Of a stretch of 55,110 nucleotides of DNA, positions 14,947 to 18,359 are shown in pieces. Below the pieces are notes generated by a model, which made no database searches, was not told where the DNA came from, and saw nothing but the letters and a program-made list of their open reading frames with translations. The translations under genes were made by a program, and so were the position numbers. Source of the DNA: Nitrospirota bacterium (GTDB lineage Bacteria > Nitrospirota > Thermodesulfovibrionia > Thermodesulfovibrionales > JdFR-85); contig WGEZ01000110.1 in NCBI GenBank assembly GCA_015492515.1, positions 1 through 55,110 of the forward strand. Direction: 5' to 3'. Each line of letters opens with the position of its first letter. Within the stretch, counting starts at the first letter, position 1.

Positions 14947-15510
14947 TCAGCGCCTGCCTATGGTGAAGGCCTTTCCGAGAAACCTCCCCGTCCCGTAATA
15001 GGTGCGGCTCTCGGGGACGAAGGAGAAGGGTCTCACCTTCTCGATCTCCGGGATGTCCTTCTCACCGATCACGGTCTCCTCTGCCTTGAGGTCCATCACC
15101 TCGCCGATGAACTGTGTATGGAGCCCTATCTCGATGGTATGGGTCACCCTGCACTCCAGAACGAGGGGAAACTCCTTTATGTACGGTGCGTCCACATGCT
15201 CTGCCTTCAACGGCGTGAGCCCCGTCGCCGTGAACTTGTCCACGGTCCTGCCGGAGACAGTGCCGAAGTAATCCGCCTCCTTGATGTTGTCCTCCGAGGG
15301 GATGTTCACCGTGAAGGCCTTCCGTTGCATCACGTTCTCGTACGTATAGGTCGCCTTCCTCAGGGAGACGGCGATGCACGGCGGTCTCGAACAGCATATC
15401 CCGCCCCATGACGCGGTCATCGCATTCGGCCTGCCGTTCCGGTCATAGGTGCCAATGACCAGGACCGGCGTCGGATAGATTATGGTCTTCGGCCCCAGTG
15501 ACTTCTTCAT
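14947..15510 (-). CDS. Flavin reductase-like FMN-binding protein (flavoredoxin family)
   Basis: YPTPVLVIGTYDRNGRPNAMTASWGG and the overall length are typical of the flavin reductase-like domain. Confidence 0.75.
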   Translation of the reverse strand: MKKSLGPKTIIYPTPVLVIGTYDRNGRPNAMTASWGGICCSRPPCIAVSLRKATYTYENVMQRKAFTVNIPSEDNIKEADYFGTVSGRTVDKFTATGLTPLKAEHVDAPYIKEFPLVLECRVTHTIEIGLHTQFIGEVMDLKAEETVIGEKDIPEIEKVRPFSFVPESRTYYGTGRFLGKAFTIGRR

Positions 15511-15578
15511 CCAGACCTCCTTTCCGCAGGGATCAACTCATGGTGTGTACAGGGCTATTATAACACCGGAGGCCGAAC

Positions 15579-15607
15579 TTACAAAACCCGGGCTTTTGTT
15601 ATATACT
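15579..15607 (+). promoter_or_regulatory. sigma70-type promoter: TTACAA-17-TATACT
   Basis: -35 lies at 15579-15584 and -10 at 15602-15607. The ATG at 15613 follows after only 5 nt, with no SD. Confidence 0.5.
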
Positions 15608-15612
15608 GTAAC

Positions 15613-16458
15613 ATGAGGAAGGGACACGCGGAGACCGATGTGGAGGCGGCCGACCTGAGGGAGGAGATAACACTCCTGAGGCAGAGGCTCACCGAGCTCA
15701 CCCCTCCCCTCGAGGCCCTCCTCAGGAGGAGGGGGTTCAGCATCTTCAAGAAGGAGCCCTCGGAAGACCTCATCATCCCTGCAGAGAGGCATCTCGACTC
15801 CTACTACGAGACGATGAAGCGGTACTCCTTCAGGCTCTTCCTGAGGGAGGTGATAAAGCACCAGGAGGGGTTCACCCCCGGGGAGGTGACCACCTACGCC
15901 ACGGAGGAGATCACCGGAGAGTACATCGACTACCTCCTCGAGACAGGGTTGCTGGAGCGGGTCTCCGGCGGGTACAGGCTGAGGAAGAGGCCCGTCAAGA
16001 GCTTCGGCGAGACCCTCGAGTGGTTCGTTGCGGAGGTGTTGAAGAGGGAGTTCAGGATGGAGACCATCTGGGGCATCAAGTTCCGGGGCAGGAGGGTCGG
16101 CGGCGACTATGACCTGATCGCCAAGCTGGACAGCGGACTCCTGTACATCGAGGTGAAGTCCTCACCCCCGAAACAGATATACGACACCGAGATAAGCGCC
16201 TTCTGGTCGAGGGTCCAGGACCTGTGTCCGGAGATGGCGGTCTTCCTGATGGATACCCATCTCAGGATGAAGGACAAGCTCGTGCCGATGTTCGAGGAGG
16301 AGCTGAGCAAGAGGTTCGAGCGCCCTCCCGCTGTGGAGAGGCTGAAGGCGGAACTCTTCACCATCGACGGCAGGGTCTTCATAATCAACTCGAAACCCTC
16401 GATCGAGGGCAACATCGAGACACTCTTGAGCTACCATCTGAGAAGGAGGTGCAGATGA
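15613..16458 (+). CDS. Hypothetical protein: N-terminal coiled segment, wHTH-like region, then a PD-(D/E)xK (Hjc/restriction-endonuclease-like) core
   Basis: VGGDYDLIAKLDSGLLYIEVKSS matches the D...(D/E)xK nuclease signature, as in Hjc (xDLVA...IEVK). The upstream segment YIDYLLETGLLERVSGGYRLRK looks like a winged helix. Confidence 0.6.
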   Translation: MRKGHAETDVEAADLREEITLLRQRLTELTPPLEALLRRRGFSIFKKEPSEDLIIPAERHLDSYYETMKRYSFRLFLREVIKHQEGFTPGEVTTYATEEITGEYIDYLLETGLLERVSGGYRLRKRPVKSFGETLEWFVAEVLKREFRMETIWGIKFRGRRVGGDYDLIAKLDSGLLYIEVKSSPPKQIYDTEISAFWSRVQDLCPEMAVFLMDTHLRMKDKLVPMFEEELSKRFERPPAVERLKAELFTIDGRVFIINSKPSIEGNIETLLSYHLRRRCR

Positions 16459-16604
16459 AGGAGGAGCTCCCCGAGATATGCGCCGTCTGTGCCTGGAGGG
16501 CGACGTGCCAGAAGAAGTTCACCCTCTCCGGAAAGGACGTAAGGTGTCCTGACTTCGTCAGGGACGTTACGATAAGGAAGGAAGAGGAGGAGCCGAAGCA
16601 GTAG
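16455..16604 (+). CDS. 49-aa four-cysteine mini-protein (zinc-ribbon-like)
   Basis: MKEELPEICAVCAWRATCQKKFTLSGKDVRCPDF... has Cys at 9, 12, 18 and 31. Its ATG overlaps the upstream stop (ATGA), and AGGAGG lies at 16444-16449. Confidence 0.6.
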   Translation: MKEELPEICAVCAWRATCQKKFTLSGKDVRCPDFVRDVTIRKEEEEPKQ

Positions 16605-16606
16605 CG

Positions 16607-18295
16607 CTACACCGAGGGCCTCAGCGCCCTGAGATGGAGCTGGAGGGTCTTTCCGCCGTTCCACTCGTTGATCACAGGGGTGTAGACGGCGTCCACCTTC
16701 ACGGTGGGCTCGAACCATTCCATCATCCCACCCATGTCGAAGCCGATGGCATCGAGCACGCAGTGGCGGTGCTTCAGCCTCGTCTTGAGGTGGTTGTTGC
16801 CCACCACCCGCGGCCCCACCGCCTCGAGCCCCTTTGTCCCGAGCAGGGGCTCGGGATTGCCGTAGCCCAGGGGTTCAAGGAGTGAGATCTCCCTCACGAG
16901 GTGGAAGTTAACCTCCCTCAGCCCTACAGCGGCATCGATGGTGAGGGTGGGGACGAGGTCCTCCCCGGTGAGGCTCTCGGCTATCACCTGGTTCATCCTC
17001 TCTTCGAACTCCGGGAGGTCCTCCGCCCTGAGCCTCAGTCCCGCCGCCTGTCTGTGCCCTCCGAAGGACAGCAGCATCTCCCTGCACCTCGATATGCCCC
17101 TGTGGAGGTCGAAGGGCGGGATGGACCTTGCCGAGCCCCTTGCAACGCCCTCGCTTATGGTGAAGACGAAGGCGGGTCTGTAGAACGCCTCGGCGAGCCT
17201 TGAGGCGACGATCCCCACCACTCCCTCGTGCCACCGCTCCGAGGCGAGCAGTATGGAGAGGTCGTAGCCCTTCTCATCCAGCATGGCCATGGCCTCCTGG
17301 TGCATCTCGTCCTCGATGGCCTGCCGCTTCATGTTCAGCTCATGGAGCCTCCTCGCCATCTCGACGGCCTCGTCGAACTCCTCCGACAACAGCAGCCTGA
17401 CGACGTCCGTGGCGTTGTCGATCCTGCCCGAGGCGTTCAGCCTCGGTATGATCGTGAAGGAGAGGAGCCCTGCGCCCACCTTCCTCTCCCTCAGTCCCGA
17501 GACCTCCCTGAGCGCCCTTATGCCGGGTCTCAGCCCCTCGTTGATGAGCCTGAGGCCCTCCTTGACGATGATCCTGCTCTCCTCGATCAGGGGGACCACG
17601 TCGGCTATGGTCCCGAGGGCTGCAAGGTCGGCAAGGTCCATCGCCGCGTCCCGACCGAGCAGGGCCGTGGCAAGCTTGAAGGCCACGACGGAGCCGGAGA
17701 TCACCGGTGCCGCATCGCCGCCGAGCCTCGGGTTGACCACCGCGAGGGCCCTGGGCAGCAGGGGCCTTCCAGAGCCGTCCCTCGCGGGTTCATGGTGGTC
17801 CGTGATGACCACGCCGATGCCCGCGGAGGCAGCCGCTTCGGCAGCCTCCCGGGAGGTTATCCCGCAGTCCACGGTCACTATCAGGCCGGCCCCGGCCTCC
17901 CTGGCGTACTCCACACCCGCTGTATTGAACCCGTATCCATGGGCCATCCTGTCGGGGATGAAGTAGCAGGTCTCCGCACCGAGCCTCCTGAGCGCGGTCA
18001 TCATCACGGCGGTGCCCGTCAGCCCGTCGGCGTCGTAGTCGCCATGGACCATGACCCTCCTGCCGGCCTTTACGGCGTCACGGATCACCTCCACCGCCTC
18101 GGCCATCCCCGGAAGCTCAAAGGGGTCCGAGAGCCCCTCCACACCCGGGTCGAGGAAGGACCTGACGGCGCCGGGAGACTTTATGCCCCTGTTTATCAGC
18201 ACCTGGGCGAAGGCTGGAGAGACCGAGGCAGCCCTTGCGAGGTAGCTTATGTACTCAGGGTTCGTCCTCTGTACCAGCCATCTCCTCTCAGACAT
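16607..18295 (-). CDS. recJ: Single-stranded-DNA-specific exonuclease RecJ
   Basis: DHH motifs VMVHGDYDADGLTG, VTVDCG and VITDHH are present, plus a DHHA1 region. The start is set at the ATG at 18295, after GGGGGTGGA. Confidence 0.92.
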   Translation of the reverse strand: MSERRWLVQRTNPEYISYLARAASVSPAFAQVLINRGIKSPGAVRSFLDPGVEGLSDPFELPGMAEAVEVIRDAVKAGRRVMVHGDYDADGLTGTAVMMTALRRLGAETCYFIPDRMAHGYGFNTAGVEYAREAGAGLIVTVDCGITSREAAEAAASAGIGVVITDHHEPARDGSGRPLLPRALAVVNPRLGGDAAPVISGSVVAFKLATALLGRDAAMDLADLAALGTIADVVPLIEESRIIVKEGLRLINEGLRPGIRALREVSGLRERKVGAGLLSFTIIPRLNASGRIDNATDVVRLLLSEEFDEAVEMARRLHELNMKRQAIEDEMHQEAMAMLDEKGYDLSILLASERWHEGVVGIVASRLAEAFYRPAFVFTISEGVARGSARSIPPFDLHRGISRCREMLLSFGGHRQAAGLRLRAEDLPEFEERMNQVIAESLTGEDLVPTLTIDAAVGLREVNFHLVREISLLEPLGYGNPEPLLGTKGLEAVGPRVVGNNHLKTRLKHRHCVLDAIGFDMGGMMEWFEPTVKVDAVYTPVINEWNGGKTLQLHLRALRPSV

Positions 18296-18359
18296 TTCCA
18301 CCCCCAACAGGCTGAGCATCCGGCCCCCTGCCCGCGTCGGGGAGGCCGCTATCGGTCCA

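What the first reader, a model, noticed from the sequence alone, without database searches (positions are those of the whole stretch)
15579..16604. wHTH plus Hjc-like PD-(D/E)xK protein translationally coupled to a 49-aa four-Cys peptide, tail-to-tail with recJ
The 281-aa ORF ends its soluble core with VGGDYDLIAKLDSGLLYIEVKSS. This is the D...(D/E)xK signature in the same local context as archaeal Holliday-junction resolvase Hjc (xDLVA...IEVK). A winged-helix-like segment and an N-terminal coiled region precede it.

Its stop overlaps (ATGA) the start of a 49-aa ORF with Cys at 9, 12, 18 and 31 (CAVC...C...C) and an acidic tail. A consensus AGGAGG lies 5 nt upstream of that ATG.

The pair has its own promoter, TTACAA-17-TATACT, which ends 5 nt before the first ATG. 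It converges on recJ with a 2-nt gap.

I recognised no named family for either protein. Hjc has been reported to work with Hel308/Hjm in archaea, and a Hel308 homolog lies 10 kb away. This two-gene unit could be a novel nuclease with a zinc-ribbon partner, acting in repair or defence.
Basis: partly seen in the sequence, partly recalled or inferred. Interest (0 to 1): 0.6.

Follow-up and report, generated by a model that had tools for sequence, protein, structure and literature searches.

The report
Uncharacterised nuclease gene with four-cysteine mini-gene
This is a real, conserved two-gene unit of unknown function in Nitrospirota bacteria: a DNA-binding nuclease whose catalytic part resembles that of CRISPR helper nucleases but has no signal sensor, followed by a tiny four-cysteine metal-binding protein. 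Its position next to recJ and near Hel308 is coincidental.

Summary
Observation: confirmed. ORF A (15613-16458, 281 aa) overlaps ORF B (16455-16604, 49 aa; Cys 9/12/18/31) by ATGA. An AGGAGG lies 5 nt upstream of B, and the -10 box ends 5 nt before A's ATG.

A matches no Pfam, NCBIfam or PADLOC model. It has more than 3000 homologues, nearly all single-copy, in 63 of 201 sampled Nitrospirota genomes. E136, D165, D167, E180 and K182 are conserved in all 51 aligned members or nearly all.

The AlphaFold2 model (pLDDT 96) shows a long N-terminal helix, a winged helix and a PD-(D/E)xK core. The nearest structures are Can2, Card1 and VC1899 (Foldseek E 5e-6; hhalign 90%), not Hjc. There is no CARF domain and no cas context.

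B is truly coding and its four Cys are invariant. It directly follows A in 55 of 80 species, often with a 4-nt overlap. In two families it is fused to a THEP1-type NTPase, and in one of them the fusion still follows A.

The pairing is facultative: B occurs without A, and A without B.

recJ adjacency was absent from all 29 relatives checked. Hel308 is present in only 8 of 201 genomes.

The first-stage scan had flagged the same family in at least six other genomes, without follow-up.

Verdict: a new variant of a known nuclease kind, of moderate interest.

The parts
15578..15607 (+). Sigma-70-like promoter (CTTACA-18-TATACT, or TTACAA-17-TATACT). The -10 box ends 5 nt before the ATG of ORF A, which implies a leaderless or near-leaderless mRNA.
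   Evidence: The promoter scan finds 9 of 12 matches. The motif TTATATACT plus 5-6 nt plus ATG is conserved in three relatives with 75-80% identical A (L044-L046), whose upstream DNA is otherwise unalignable. No Shine-Dalgarno sequence precedes the ATG.
15613..16458 (+). ORF A, 281 aa: an uncharacterised protein with an N-terminal helix, a winged helix and a PD-(D/E)xK nuclease core.
   Evidence: ORF and sequence. No Pfam, NCBIfam or PADLOC family matches. There are more than 3000 homologues and 453 clusters at 50% identity. AF2 model has pLDDT 96.4 and pTM 0.91.
15619..15699 (+). N-terminal long alpha-helix (residues 3-29), a candidate coiled-coil dimerisation element. It occupies the position of the CARF domain in Can2/Card1.
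   Evidence: The AF2 secondary structure shows helix H3-29. The region varies in sequence and length across the family. Dimerisation is inferred.
15784..15981 (+). Winged helix-turn-helix (residues ~58-123), including the conserved YSFRLFLR helix with invariant R74.
   Evidence: The A1 profile hits an ArsR-family regulator (7r22) at E 0.0057 over positions 55-130. AF2 shows helices 58-68, 71-82 and 98-110 and wing strands 114-117 and 120-123.
16006..16386 (+). PD-(D/E)xK nuclease core (residues ~132-258). Key residues: E136 (16018-16020), D165 and D167 (16105-16113), E180-V-K182 (16150-16158); also invariant R200 and D214.
   Evidence: D165, D167, E180 and K182 are invariant and E136 at least 90% conserved in 51 diverse members. 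The alpha-beta-beta-beta-alpha-beta topology appears in the AF2 model. Foldseek hits Can2 (8bao, 7bdv), VC1899 (1xmx) and Cdn1 at E 5e-6 to 1e-3, probability 1.00. hhalign against Can2-like proteins gives probability 90.3%, E 1.5e-6, with the motifs aligned.
16444..16449 (+). Shine-Dalgarno AGGAGG, 5 nt upstream of the ATG of ORF B and inside the 3' end of ORF A.
   Evidence: Read directly from the sequence.
16455..16604 (+). ORF B, 49 aa: a conserved mini-protein with the pattern CX2CX5CX12C (Cys codons at 16479-81, 16488-90, 16506-08 and 16545-47) and a Glu/Lys-rich tail. Its start overlaps the stop of A (ATGA).
   Evidence: 78 database homologues, all unnamed. C9, C12, A13, W14, C18, K20, C31, F34 and D37 are invariant in 39 sequences. 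The coding signature shows in codon-position differences of 6017, 3656 and 16979. B lies directly downstream of A in 55 of 80 species. It is fused to a Pfam NTPase_1 domain in two other Nitrospirota families.

Best explanation
ORF A encodes a metal-dependent PD-(D/E)xK endonuclease of a previously unmodelled family. It is built from the same 'winged-helix insert plus nuclease' module as the CRISPR ancillary nucleases Can2/Card1 and VC1899 (DUF1887). It lacks their CARF sensor and has a long N-terminal helix in that position.

Shown:
- The fold, and the conserved E136/D165/D167/E180/K182 site.
- Remote homology to Can2-type nuclease domains.
- A single-copy, lineage-wide distribution in Nitrospirota, with outliers in Dictyoglomus, Caldisericota and Coprothermobacterota.
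- No cas or defence context.

Inferred:
- The N-terminal helix dimerises the protein, bringing two nuclease domains together as the CARF dimer does in Can2.
- The winged helix binds nucleic acid.
- The enzyme nicks or cleaves DNA, and possibly RNA, in a housekeeping role in DNA metabolism rather than in defence.

ORF B is a genuine 49-aa four-Cys metalloprotein, binding either Zn or a [4Fe-4S]-type cluster. It is co-translated with A from what is probably a leaderless transcript.

B stays directly behind A across several families. In one sampled family of another class (f15) it is the N-terminal domain of a THEP1-type P-loop NTPase that still sits directly behind A. I therefore infer that B is an accessory or regulatory partner of the nuclease. 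This genome also encodes a free THEP1-type NTPase on another contig.

The partnership is facultative, because each gene also occurs without the other.
For: Fold and active site:
- AF2 model pLDDT 96.4 with the canonical alpha-beta-beta-beta-alpha-beta core.
- The 51-sequence alignment has G164, D165, D167, E180, K182, R200 and D214 invariant, and T134, L135, E136 and W137 at least 90% conserved.

Relationship to Can2/Card1:
- The top 19 Foldseek hits in PDB are Can2, VC1899 and Cdn1 (E 4.8e-6 to 1.9e-3, TMq 0.41-0.52).
- An HMM search of PDB finds Can2 7bdv with LEW/FEH, DyDV/LDV and EvK/ECK aligned.
- hhalign of A1 against eight genuine Card1_endonuc proteins from the same phylum gives probability 90.3%, E 1.5e-6.
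- The Can2 paper describes the extra four-helix, two-strand motif attached to the nuclease core (PMC7969007).

Housekeeping-like distribution:
- A is in 63 of 201 sampled genomes, single copy in all but one (G042 has two), and 53-65% identical across the order.
- yjbQ lies directly upstream on the same strand in 46 of 77 species, and lpxK in 31.
- Genuine Can2 homologues are patchy (13 of 201) and coexist with A in four genomes.
- In distant phyla A lies in holB-PSP1-A-rarA and nth-A-cinA...recA arrangements.

B:
- Invariant Cys4 core and coding signature.
- B follows A in 55 of 80 species. Of these, 23 have a 4-nt overlap and 37 overlap or abut within -19 to +3 nt.
- The Cys4-NTPase_1 fusion (PF03266, E 3e-50) lies directly downstream of A in family f15.
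- This genome has a free NTPase_1 at G000:C56:11345-11833.
- In this genome the A-B pair sits apart from both yjbQ copies and has its own conserved -10 box.
Against:
- A does not match Pfam Card1_endonuc even at E <= 10, so the Can2 relationship is remote.
- The A-B link is not obligate. B is present without A in families f6 (10 of 10) and f7 (3 of 3), and next to argS, atpH/atpA or recO elsewhere. A is present without B in f17 (31 of 44 against 0 of 44) and in Dictyoglomus and Caldisericota.
- Gene contexts of distant members are mostly metabolic and inconsistent, so the 'DNA metabolism' role rests on the fold plus a few anecdotal neighbourhoods.
- The model of B is poor (pLDDT 60.6), so its metal site is inferred from the Cys pattern alone.
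Confidence: 0.6

Rival explanations
1. A and B are functionally independent. A is a nuclease, but B is a stand-alone small metalloprotein with its own role. Their adjacency and overlap are inherited gene order within one bacterial class, not a partnership.
For: - B occurs without A in f6 (10 of 10), f7 (3 of 3), most of f14, f26 and Thermosulfuriphilus-like contigs. There it lies beside recO/marC, atpH/atpA or argS.
- A occurs without B in f17 (31 of 44 against 0 of 44) and in other phyla.
- B is more widespread in the order than either A or NTPase_1.
Against: - Adjacency persists across several families and in a different class (f15, where A is only ~45% identical), even after B was fused to an NTPase.
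- Of the 55 species with B downstream, 37 have the two genes overlapping or abutting.
- In this genome and its close relatives the pair has moved away from yjbQ as a unit with its own promoter.
Confidence: 0.3
2. A is a non-catalytic DNA-binding regulator. The winged helix would act as a transcription factor, for example for the yjbQ/lipid A gene cluster, and the nuclease-like domain would serve only as a dimerisation or ligand-binding scaffold.
For: - The profile matches an ArsR-family wHTH (E 0.0057).
- A has a conserved position behind lpxK-yjbQ.
- VC1899, a structural relative, is inactive in vitro apart from weak RNase activity (PMC7969007).
Against: The full catalytic set, E136 (>=90% conserved) and invariant D165, D167, E180 and K182, is retained in 51 sequences down to 26% identity. 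Inactivated PD-(D/E)xK domains normally lose these residues.
Confidence: 0.1
3. The pair is a toxin-antitoxin or anti-phage defence module. A would be a nuclease toxin and B a small acid-tailed inhibitor.
For: - A small, translationally coupled, charged-tail partner sits next to a nuclease.
- There is a weak PADLOC hit to HEC-02B (E 0.0097, 13.6 bits).
- The nearest structures are CRISPR ancillary nucleases.
Against: - The 'toxin' exists without the 'antitoxin' in a whole family (f17) and in other phyla.
- A is single copy in all but one carrier, 53-65% identical across an order, and stably syntenic with lpxK-yjbQ.
- No cas, methylase or other defence genes recur in 77 sets of flanks.
- There is no CARF or other sensor domain.
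- Genuine Can2 homologues show the patchy pattern expected of defence genes, and A does not.
Confidence: 0.07
4. This is the first reader's reading: an Hjc-like Holliday-junction resolvase acting with Hel308 and/or RecJ.
For: - The local motif xDL(I/V)A...IEVK resembles Hjc.
- recJ is convergent 2 nt away, and Hel308 lies 10 kb away.
- Some distant members sit beside rarA, nth, cinA or recA.
Against: - The Pfam Hjc model finds nothing in this genome, and no Hjc structure is in the Foldseek top 50.
- A canonical RuvC is present.
- recJ is not adjacent to A in 29 relatives.
- Hel308 is in only 8 of 201 genomes and is unlinked to A where both occur.
Confidence: 0.05

Closest known systems
Can2 / Card1 / VC1899 (DUF1887; Pfam PF09002 Card1_endonuc), the cA4-activated CRISPR type III ancillary nucleases (PMC7969007)
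   Same: - The PD-(D/E)xK nuclease core carries the same attached four-helix, two-strand (winged-helix-like) motif.
- The catalytic E...D...ExK residues align (LEW/LEE, DYDV/EFDV, EVKS/ECKT).
- These are the best Foldseek hits (E 5e-6) and hhalign gives 90% probability.
   Different: - A has no CARF domain. A ~30-residue helix plus a conserved LxRRGF segment take its place.
- A does not match the Pfam model even at E <= 10.
- A has no CRISPR or cas neighbourhood.
- A is single-copy and vertically conserved across Nitrospirota, whereas genuine Can2 is patchy in the same phylum (13 of 201).
- A has a Cys4 mini-protein partner that Can2 lacks.
Hjc, the archaeal Holliday-junction resolvase (Pfam PF01870)
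   Same: Both belong to the PD-(D/E)xK superfamily, and the local motif around the D and ExK residues is similar.
   Different: - Hjc is a ~120-140-aa single-domain archaeal protein (from general knowledge).
- A is 281 aa with a wHTH and an N-terminal helix.
- The Hjc model gives no match, and Hjc is not among the top structural hits.
THEP1 / NTPase_1 (Pfam PF03266; Aquifex aeolicus aq_1292, PMC1079890)
   Same: In families f14 and f15 the B module is the N-terminal ~45 residues of a protein whose remainder is a full NTPase_1 domain (E 3e-50). This genome carries a free NTPase_1.
   Different: - In this window B is free-standing and the NTPase lies on another contig.
[quoted passage not shown]
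- NTPase_1 is patchier in the order than B.
Nbp35 / NUBP1 N-terminal [4Fe-4S] motif CX13CX2CX5C on a P-loop NTPase (PMC8007109)
   Same: Both are short four-Cys N-terminal modules containing CX2CX5C, fused to a P-loop NTPase. This is an architectural analogy to the Cys4-THEP1 fusions.
   Different: - The order of the Cys differs (CX2CX5CX11-13C here).
- The NTPase family differs (THEP1, not Mrp/MinD).
- No sequence homology was shown.
- The metal content of B is unknown.

Membership tests
PD-(D/E)xK nuclease superfamily | An alpha-beta-beta-beta-alpha-beta core fold. | tested here: met
   The AF2 model (pLDDT 96.4) has H132-147, E151-157, E166-172, E175-182, H191-204 and E208-213. Foldseek gives probability 1.00 to solved PD-(D/E)xK nucleases.
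PD-(D/E)xK nuclease superfamily | Conserved acidic and lysine catalytic residues: E on helix 1, D at the start of strand 2, (D/E)xK on strand 3. | tested here: met
   D165, D167, E180 and K182 are invariant and E136 is at least 90% conserved in 51 sequences. They align to the Can2 catalytic residues.
PD-(D/E)xK nuclease superfamily | Metal-dependent phosphodiester cleavage. | not testable with these tools
   This needs a biochemical assay.
Can2/Card1 (DUF1887, Pfam PF09002) | A match to the family's sequence model. | tested here: not met
   No Pfam hit at E <= 1. PF09002 finds nothing in the genome at E <= 10. Only profile-profile and structural similarity was found.
Can2/Card1 (DUF1887, Pfam PF09002) | An N-terminal CARF (Rossmann-like) cyclic-oligoadenylate sensor domain. 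| tested here: not met
   Residues 1-57 are modelled as two helices and one short strand. hhalign aligns only residues 96-226 to the C-terminal part of the Can2-like proteins.
Can2/Card1 (DUF1887, Pfam PF09002) | Association with type III CRISPR-cas loci. | tested here: not met
   The recurrent neighbours in 77 sets of +/-4-kb flanks are yjbQ, lpxK, waaA and other housekeeping genes. The recurrent clusters were identified by eye from their sequences, not scanned against cas models.
Can2/Card1 (DUF1887, Pfam PF09002) | A nuclease core with an attached helical/two-strand (wH-like) motif. | tested here: met
   Foldseek alignments of 250-290 columns to 7bdv, 8bao and 1xmx. The motif is described in PMC7969007.
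Hjc Holliday-junction resolvase (Pfam PF01870) | A match to the family model, with Hjc as the closest structure. | tested here: not met
   No Pfam hit. PF01870 finds nothing in the genome while it does hit four control genomes. No Hjc entry is in the Foldseek top 50.
Hjc Holliday-junction resolvase (Pfam PF01870) | Cleavage of four-way DNA junctions. | not testable with these tools
   This needs an assay. The genome already encodes RuvC.
Type II toxin-antitoxin / defence pair | Obligate co-occurrence of the two genes, with a patchy, mobile distribution. | tested here: not met
   A occurs without B in f17, and B without A in f6 and f7. A is single-copy in all but one carrier and syntenic.
Zinc ribbon (for ORF B) | Two CxxC-type knuckles on beta-hairpins that chelate one Zn. 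| tested here: inconclusive
   There is only one CxxC; the pattern is CX2CX5CX12C. The AF2 model is poor (pLDDT 60.6) and predicts a helix over residues 10-24. The metal was not determined.
NTPase_1 / THEP1 (Pfam PF03266), for the fusion partner of B in relatives | A match above the Pfam gathering score, with a Walker A motif. | tested here: met
   170.9 and 167.0 bits against a cut-off of 23.9, with a GxPGxGKTT motif. The window's own B is not fused.

The most novel reading that the evidence does not exclude
The A family would be the free-living, CARF-less counterpart of the Can2/Card1 nuclease module. It would act as a housekeeping nuclease of anaerobic, largely thermophilic lineages. Instead of a cyclic-nucleotide sensor, its activity would be gated by a four-Cys (possibly Fe-S, redox-sensitive) mini-protein, acting alone or as the N-terminal domain of a THEP1-type NTPase. 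This would define a new three-part nuclease / Cys4 / NTPase system. It would give a first biological context to THEP1-type NTPases, whose function I know of no paper establishing. It would also point to the kind of cellular nuclease from which the CRISPR ancillary nucleases were recruited.
Probability: 0.15. Interest if true: 0.7.

Novelty: new variant of a known kind. Interest (0 to 1): 0.45.

Why it matters
- A conserved, probably active nuclease present in about a third of sampled Nitrospirota (63 of 201 genomes), and in some Dictyoglomus, Caldisericota and Coprothermobacterota, has no family model and no name in the libraries searched.
- It links the nuclease module of the CRISPR ancillary effectors Can2 and Card1 to a non-defence, vertically inherited cellular gene. 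This bears on where those effectors came from.
- Its partner is a previously undescribed four-Cys mini-protein family. The fusion of that mini-protein to THEP1-type NTPases is a 'Rosetta-stone' clue for an NTPase family whose cellular role I know of no paper establishing.
- None of this answers a long-standing question directly. It does define a clean, small, testable system.

Tried and rejected
- Pfam, NCBIfam, PADLOC and PHROGs scans of A and B gave only sub-threshold noise: PRK14683 E 0.11, HEC-02B E 0.0097, and a plant Cys-rich domain E 0.04.
- Pfam on ten longer or distant family members found nothing.
- phmmer of A against PDB gave only noise.
- recJ, secF, flavin-reductase and pcm synteny was tested in 29 relatives and found in none. 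The recJ link is rejected.
- The Hel308 phyletic link is rejected: 8 of 201 genomes, unlinked to A.
- The RuvC-replacement idea is rejected, because RuvC is present.
- Membership in Hjc and in Card1_endonuc is rejected at the sequence-model level.
- The search for related loci with the 51-sequence alignment failed because no conserved stretch was found. It was repeated with a 14-sequence alignment.
- AF2 on B gave a low-confidence model, so no fold search was run on it.
- A search for other fusion partners of the Cys4 module returned only three NTPase_1 fusions; its sensitivity was limited.
- Contexts of distant members showed no common partner.
Full report
**1. Observation**

- ORF A runs 15613-16458 (+) and encodes 281 aa.
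- ORF B runs 16455-16604 (+) and encodes 49 aa: MKEELPEICAVCAWRATCQKKFTLSGKDVRCPDFVRDVTIRKEEEEPKQ.
- The two overlap in ATGA. AGGAGG (16444-16449) lies 5 nt before B's ATG.
- B's TAG stop is 2 nt from the stop of the convergent 570-aa recJ ORF (16607-18319, minus strand).

The promoter scan returns CTTACA-18-TATACT at 15578-15607. Its -10 box ends 5 nt before A's ATG, and no Shine-Dalgarno sequence intervenes.

In three relatives whose A proteins are 75-80% identical (L044-L046) the upstream DNA cannot be aligned. The exception is TTATATACT followed by 5-6 nt and the ATG. A conserved promoter that yields a leaderless or near-leaderless mRNA is therefore likely.

**2. What ORF A is**

*Sequence searches.*
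- No Pfam, NCBIfam, PADLOC or PHROGs family matches. Ten longer or more distant family members also have no Pfam domain.
- The family is nevertheless large. There are more than 3000 hits in the 90%-clustered database, all unnamed or 'hypothetical', and 453 clusters at 50% identity.
- A 51-sequence alignment reaching down to 26% identity has G41, R74, G132, G164, D165, D167, E180, K182, R200 and D214 invariant. T134, L135, E136, W137, P185 and P186 are at least 90% conserved.

*Structure.* AlphaFold2 on that alignment gives a very confident model (pLDDT 96.4, pTM 0.91) with three parts:
- a long helix (residues 3-29) and a short conserved LxRRGF segment;
- a winged helix (about residues 58-123);
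- an alpha-beta-beta-beta-alpha-beta nuclease core, with E136 on the first helix, D165 and D167 at the start of strand 2, and E180-x-K182 on strand 3.

*Nearest relatives.*
- The alignment profile hits an ArsR-family wHTH (E 0.0057) and the Can2 nuclease domain (E 0.14, catalytic motifs aligned) in PDB.
- The top 19 Foldseek hits are Can2, VC1899 (1xmx) and Cdn1 (E 4.8e-6 to 1.9e-3). AF1548, McrC, DdmD and Can1 follow. No Hjc structure is in the top 50.
- I collected eight genuine Card1_endonuc (PF09002) proteins from the same phylum. hhalign against the A alignment gives 90.3% probability and E 1.5e-6. It aligns A residues 96-226 with the C-terminal nuclease part, matching LEW/LEE, DYDV/EFDV and EVKS/ECKT.
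- The Can2 paper describes the same 'four helices flanking two strands' appended to the nuclease core (PMC7969007).

*Membership.*
- A works like, and is remotely related to, the Can2/Card1 nuclease module. It is not a member of that family: the Pfam model does not match even at E <= 10, there is no CARF domain, and there is no cas context.
- It is also not Hjc. PF01870 finds nothing in the genome, and the genome has a normal RuvC.

**3. Distribution and context of A**

- In an even sample of 201 genomes of the phylum, A is present in 63. All but one carry a single copy (G042 has two). Identity is 53-65% across the window's order and 42-58% in other classes.
- Genuine Can2 homologues in the same sample are patchy (13 of 201) and coexist with A in four genomes.
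- Among 80 GTDB species representatives, nearly all labelled Nitrospirota or Thermodesulfovibrionia, 77 could be used for neighbourhood clustering. The recurrent same-strand upstream neighbours are yjbQ/UPF0047 (46 of 77), lpxK (31) and waaA (12). No recurrent neighbour looked like a defence gene.
- In this genome both yjbQ copies lie on other contigs. Here, and in the closest relatives, the A-B pair stands alone with its own promoter.
- Distant members occur in Dictyoglomus, Caldisericota and Coprothermobacterota. There A sits in tmk-darA-holB-PSP1-A-rarA, with an 8-nt overlap with rarA, and in nth-A-cinA...recA. Other distant contexts are metabolic.
- recJ, secF and the other window neighbours are not next to A in any of 29 related genomes.
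- Hel308 is found in only 8 of 201 genomes and is unlinked to A where both occur.

The overall pattern (single copy, lineage-wide, syntenic) is that of a housekeeping gene, not a defence island.

**4. What ORF B is**

- B has 78 database homologues of 46-73 aa, all unnamed.
- C9, C12, A13, W14, C18, K20, C31, F34 and D37 are invariant in 39 sequences.
- Across 82 loci the core shows 6017, 3656 and 16979 differences at codon positions 1, 2 and 3, a clear coding signature.
- B lies directly downstream of A in 55 of 80 species. Of these, 23 have a 4-nt overlap and 37 overlap or abut within -19 to +3 nt.

*The fusion clue.* In families f14 and f15 the same Cys4 motif is the first ~45 residues of a 218-223-aa protein. 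The rest of that protein is a full Pfam NTPase_1 (THEP1-type) domain (E about 3e-50; confirmed in the large database). In f15 the fusion gene still sits immediately downstream of the A homologue. The window's genome has a free 176-aa NTPase_1 on another contig.

*The limits of the pairing.*
- B is present in every sampled genome of families f6 (10 of 10) and f7 (3 of 3), which lack A. It is absent from f17 (0 of 44), where A is common (31 of 44).
- Where A is missing, B lies next to recO/marC, between atpH and atpA, or overlapping argS.
- NTPase_1 is patchier than B within the order.

*Metal site.* AF2 on B is uninformative (pLDDT 60.6). The CX2CX5C core followed by a distant fourth Cys, often as Cys-Pro, is compatible with Zn. 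It also recalls the [4Fe-4S] motif CX13CX2CX5C at the N-terminus of the P-loop NTPases Nbp35 and NUBP1 (PMC8007109). That resemblance is an analogy, not a tested homology.

**5. Most likely mechanism**

*Shown:* A has an intact, invariant PD-(D/E)xK site on a Can2-type nuclease module with a wHTH. B is a real, conserved Cys4 protein, commonly co-translated with A.

*Inferred:*
- A dimerises through its N-terminal helix, which replaces the CARF dimer of Can2.
- A binds nucleic acid through the winged helix and cleaves or nicks it in a metal-dependent way, in a housekeeping role.
- B, either alone or as the head of a THEP1-type NTPase, is an accessory or regulatory subunit.

I give this about 0.6 overall. 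The A-B partnership on its own is roughly even odds.

*Rivals:*
- A and B are independent (0.3).
- A is a non-catalytic regulator (0.1).
- The pair is a toxin-antitoxin or defence module (0.07).
- A is an Hjc-type resolvase acting with Hel308 or RecJ (0.05).

**6. Novelty and verdict**

The superfamily and the structural class are known. Four things are new:
- an unmodelled, widely conserved CARF-less family;
- its non-defence distribution;
- the Cys4 mini-protein family;
- the Cys4-THEP1 fusion.

First-stage notes of this scan flagged the same family in at least six other genomes. Those notes recorded yjbQ coupling, PolX coupling and a radical-SAM neighbour, but none was followed up. My yjbQ counts agree with them.

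I rate this a new variant of a known kind, with interest 0.45.

Noticed in passing
L031:2690-3352 (-), L032:2906-3568 (+), L033:2423-3079 (-), L034:1343-2014 (+), L035:3206-3874 (+), L041, L042: In two other Nitrospirota families the four-Cys module is the N-terminal ~45 aa of a THEP1-type NTPase (Pfam NTPase_1). I know of no description of this domain fusion, for an NTPase family whose cellular role I know of no paper establishing.
   Followed up: partly
window 15557-15584 (-): A strong promoter-like site with a TG-extended -10 box (TTGTAA-16-TATAAT, 10 of 12 matches) faces the divergent flavin-reductase-like gene (14947-15510, minus strand). It overlaps the -35 region of the ORF A promoter, so the two are back-to-back promoters.
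   Followed up: no
L040:3014-3181 (G124:C161): A free-standing copy of the Cys4 mini-gene sits between atpH and atpA inside an F-type ATPase operon, ending just at the atpA start.
   Followed up: no
L150:4001-4198, L151, L152: In Thermosulfuriphilus-like contigs from another phylum, a 65-aa Cys4 mini-gene overlaps the start of argS by about 59 nt. No A homologue is nearby.
   Followed up: no
L036-L038 (genus g7, which lacks ORF A): The mini-gene lies in era-DUF151-recO-[variable nucleotidyltransferase/HEPN pair]-mini-marC-cobO-...-lpxK. A nucleotidyltransferase gene, with a HEPN gene in L038, is inserted between recO and the mini-gene in two of the three genomes.
   Followed up: no
G012:C2:219570-220442 (-): Here the A homologue matches as two pieces (query residues 9-163 and 162-277) in different frames. 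It is a likely frameshifted or pseudogenised copy, and is still followed by the Cys4-NTPase gene.
   Followed up: no
G031:C4:32498-34627 and G031:C4:37260-37736: In one related genome the Hel308 homologue and the free NTPase_1 gene lie 2.6 kb apart on the same strand. This is a single case and may be chance.
   Followed up: no
L123 (JBLMWN010000115.1) and L051 (JAHILQ010000254.1): Contigs labelled 'Betaproteobacteria bacterium' and 'Nitrospinota bacterium' carry A homologues 58-63% identical to the window's. This suggests mis-binning, mislabelling or recent transfer.
   Followed up: no
window 15730-15750 (ORF A residues 37-46): The segment LxRRGF (invariant G41, near-invariant L37 and R40) lies between the N-terminal helix and the winged helix. 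It is among the best-conserved parts of the family and has no counterpart in Can2. Its role is unexplained.
   Followed up: no
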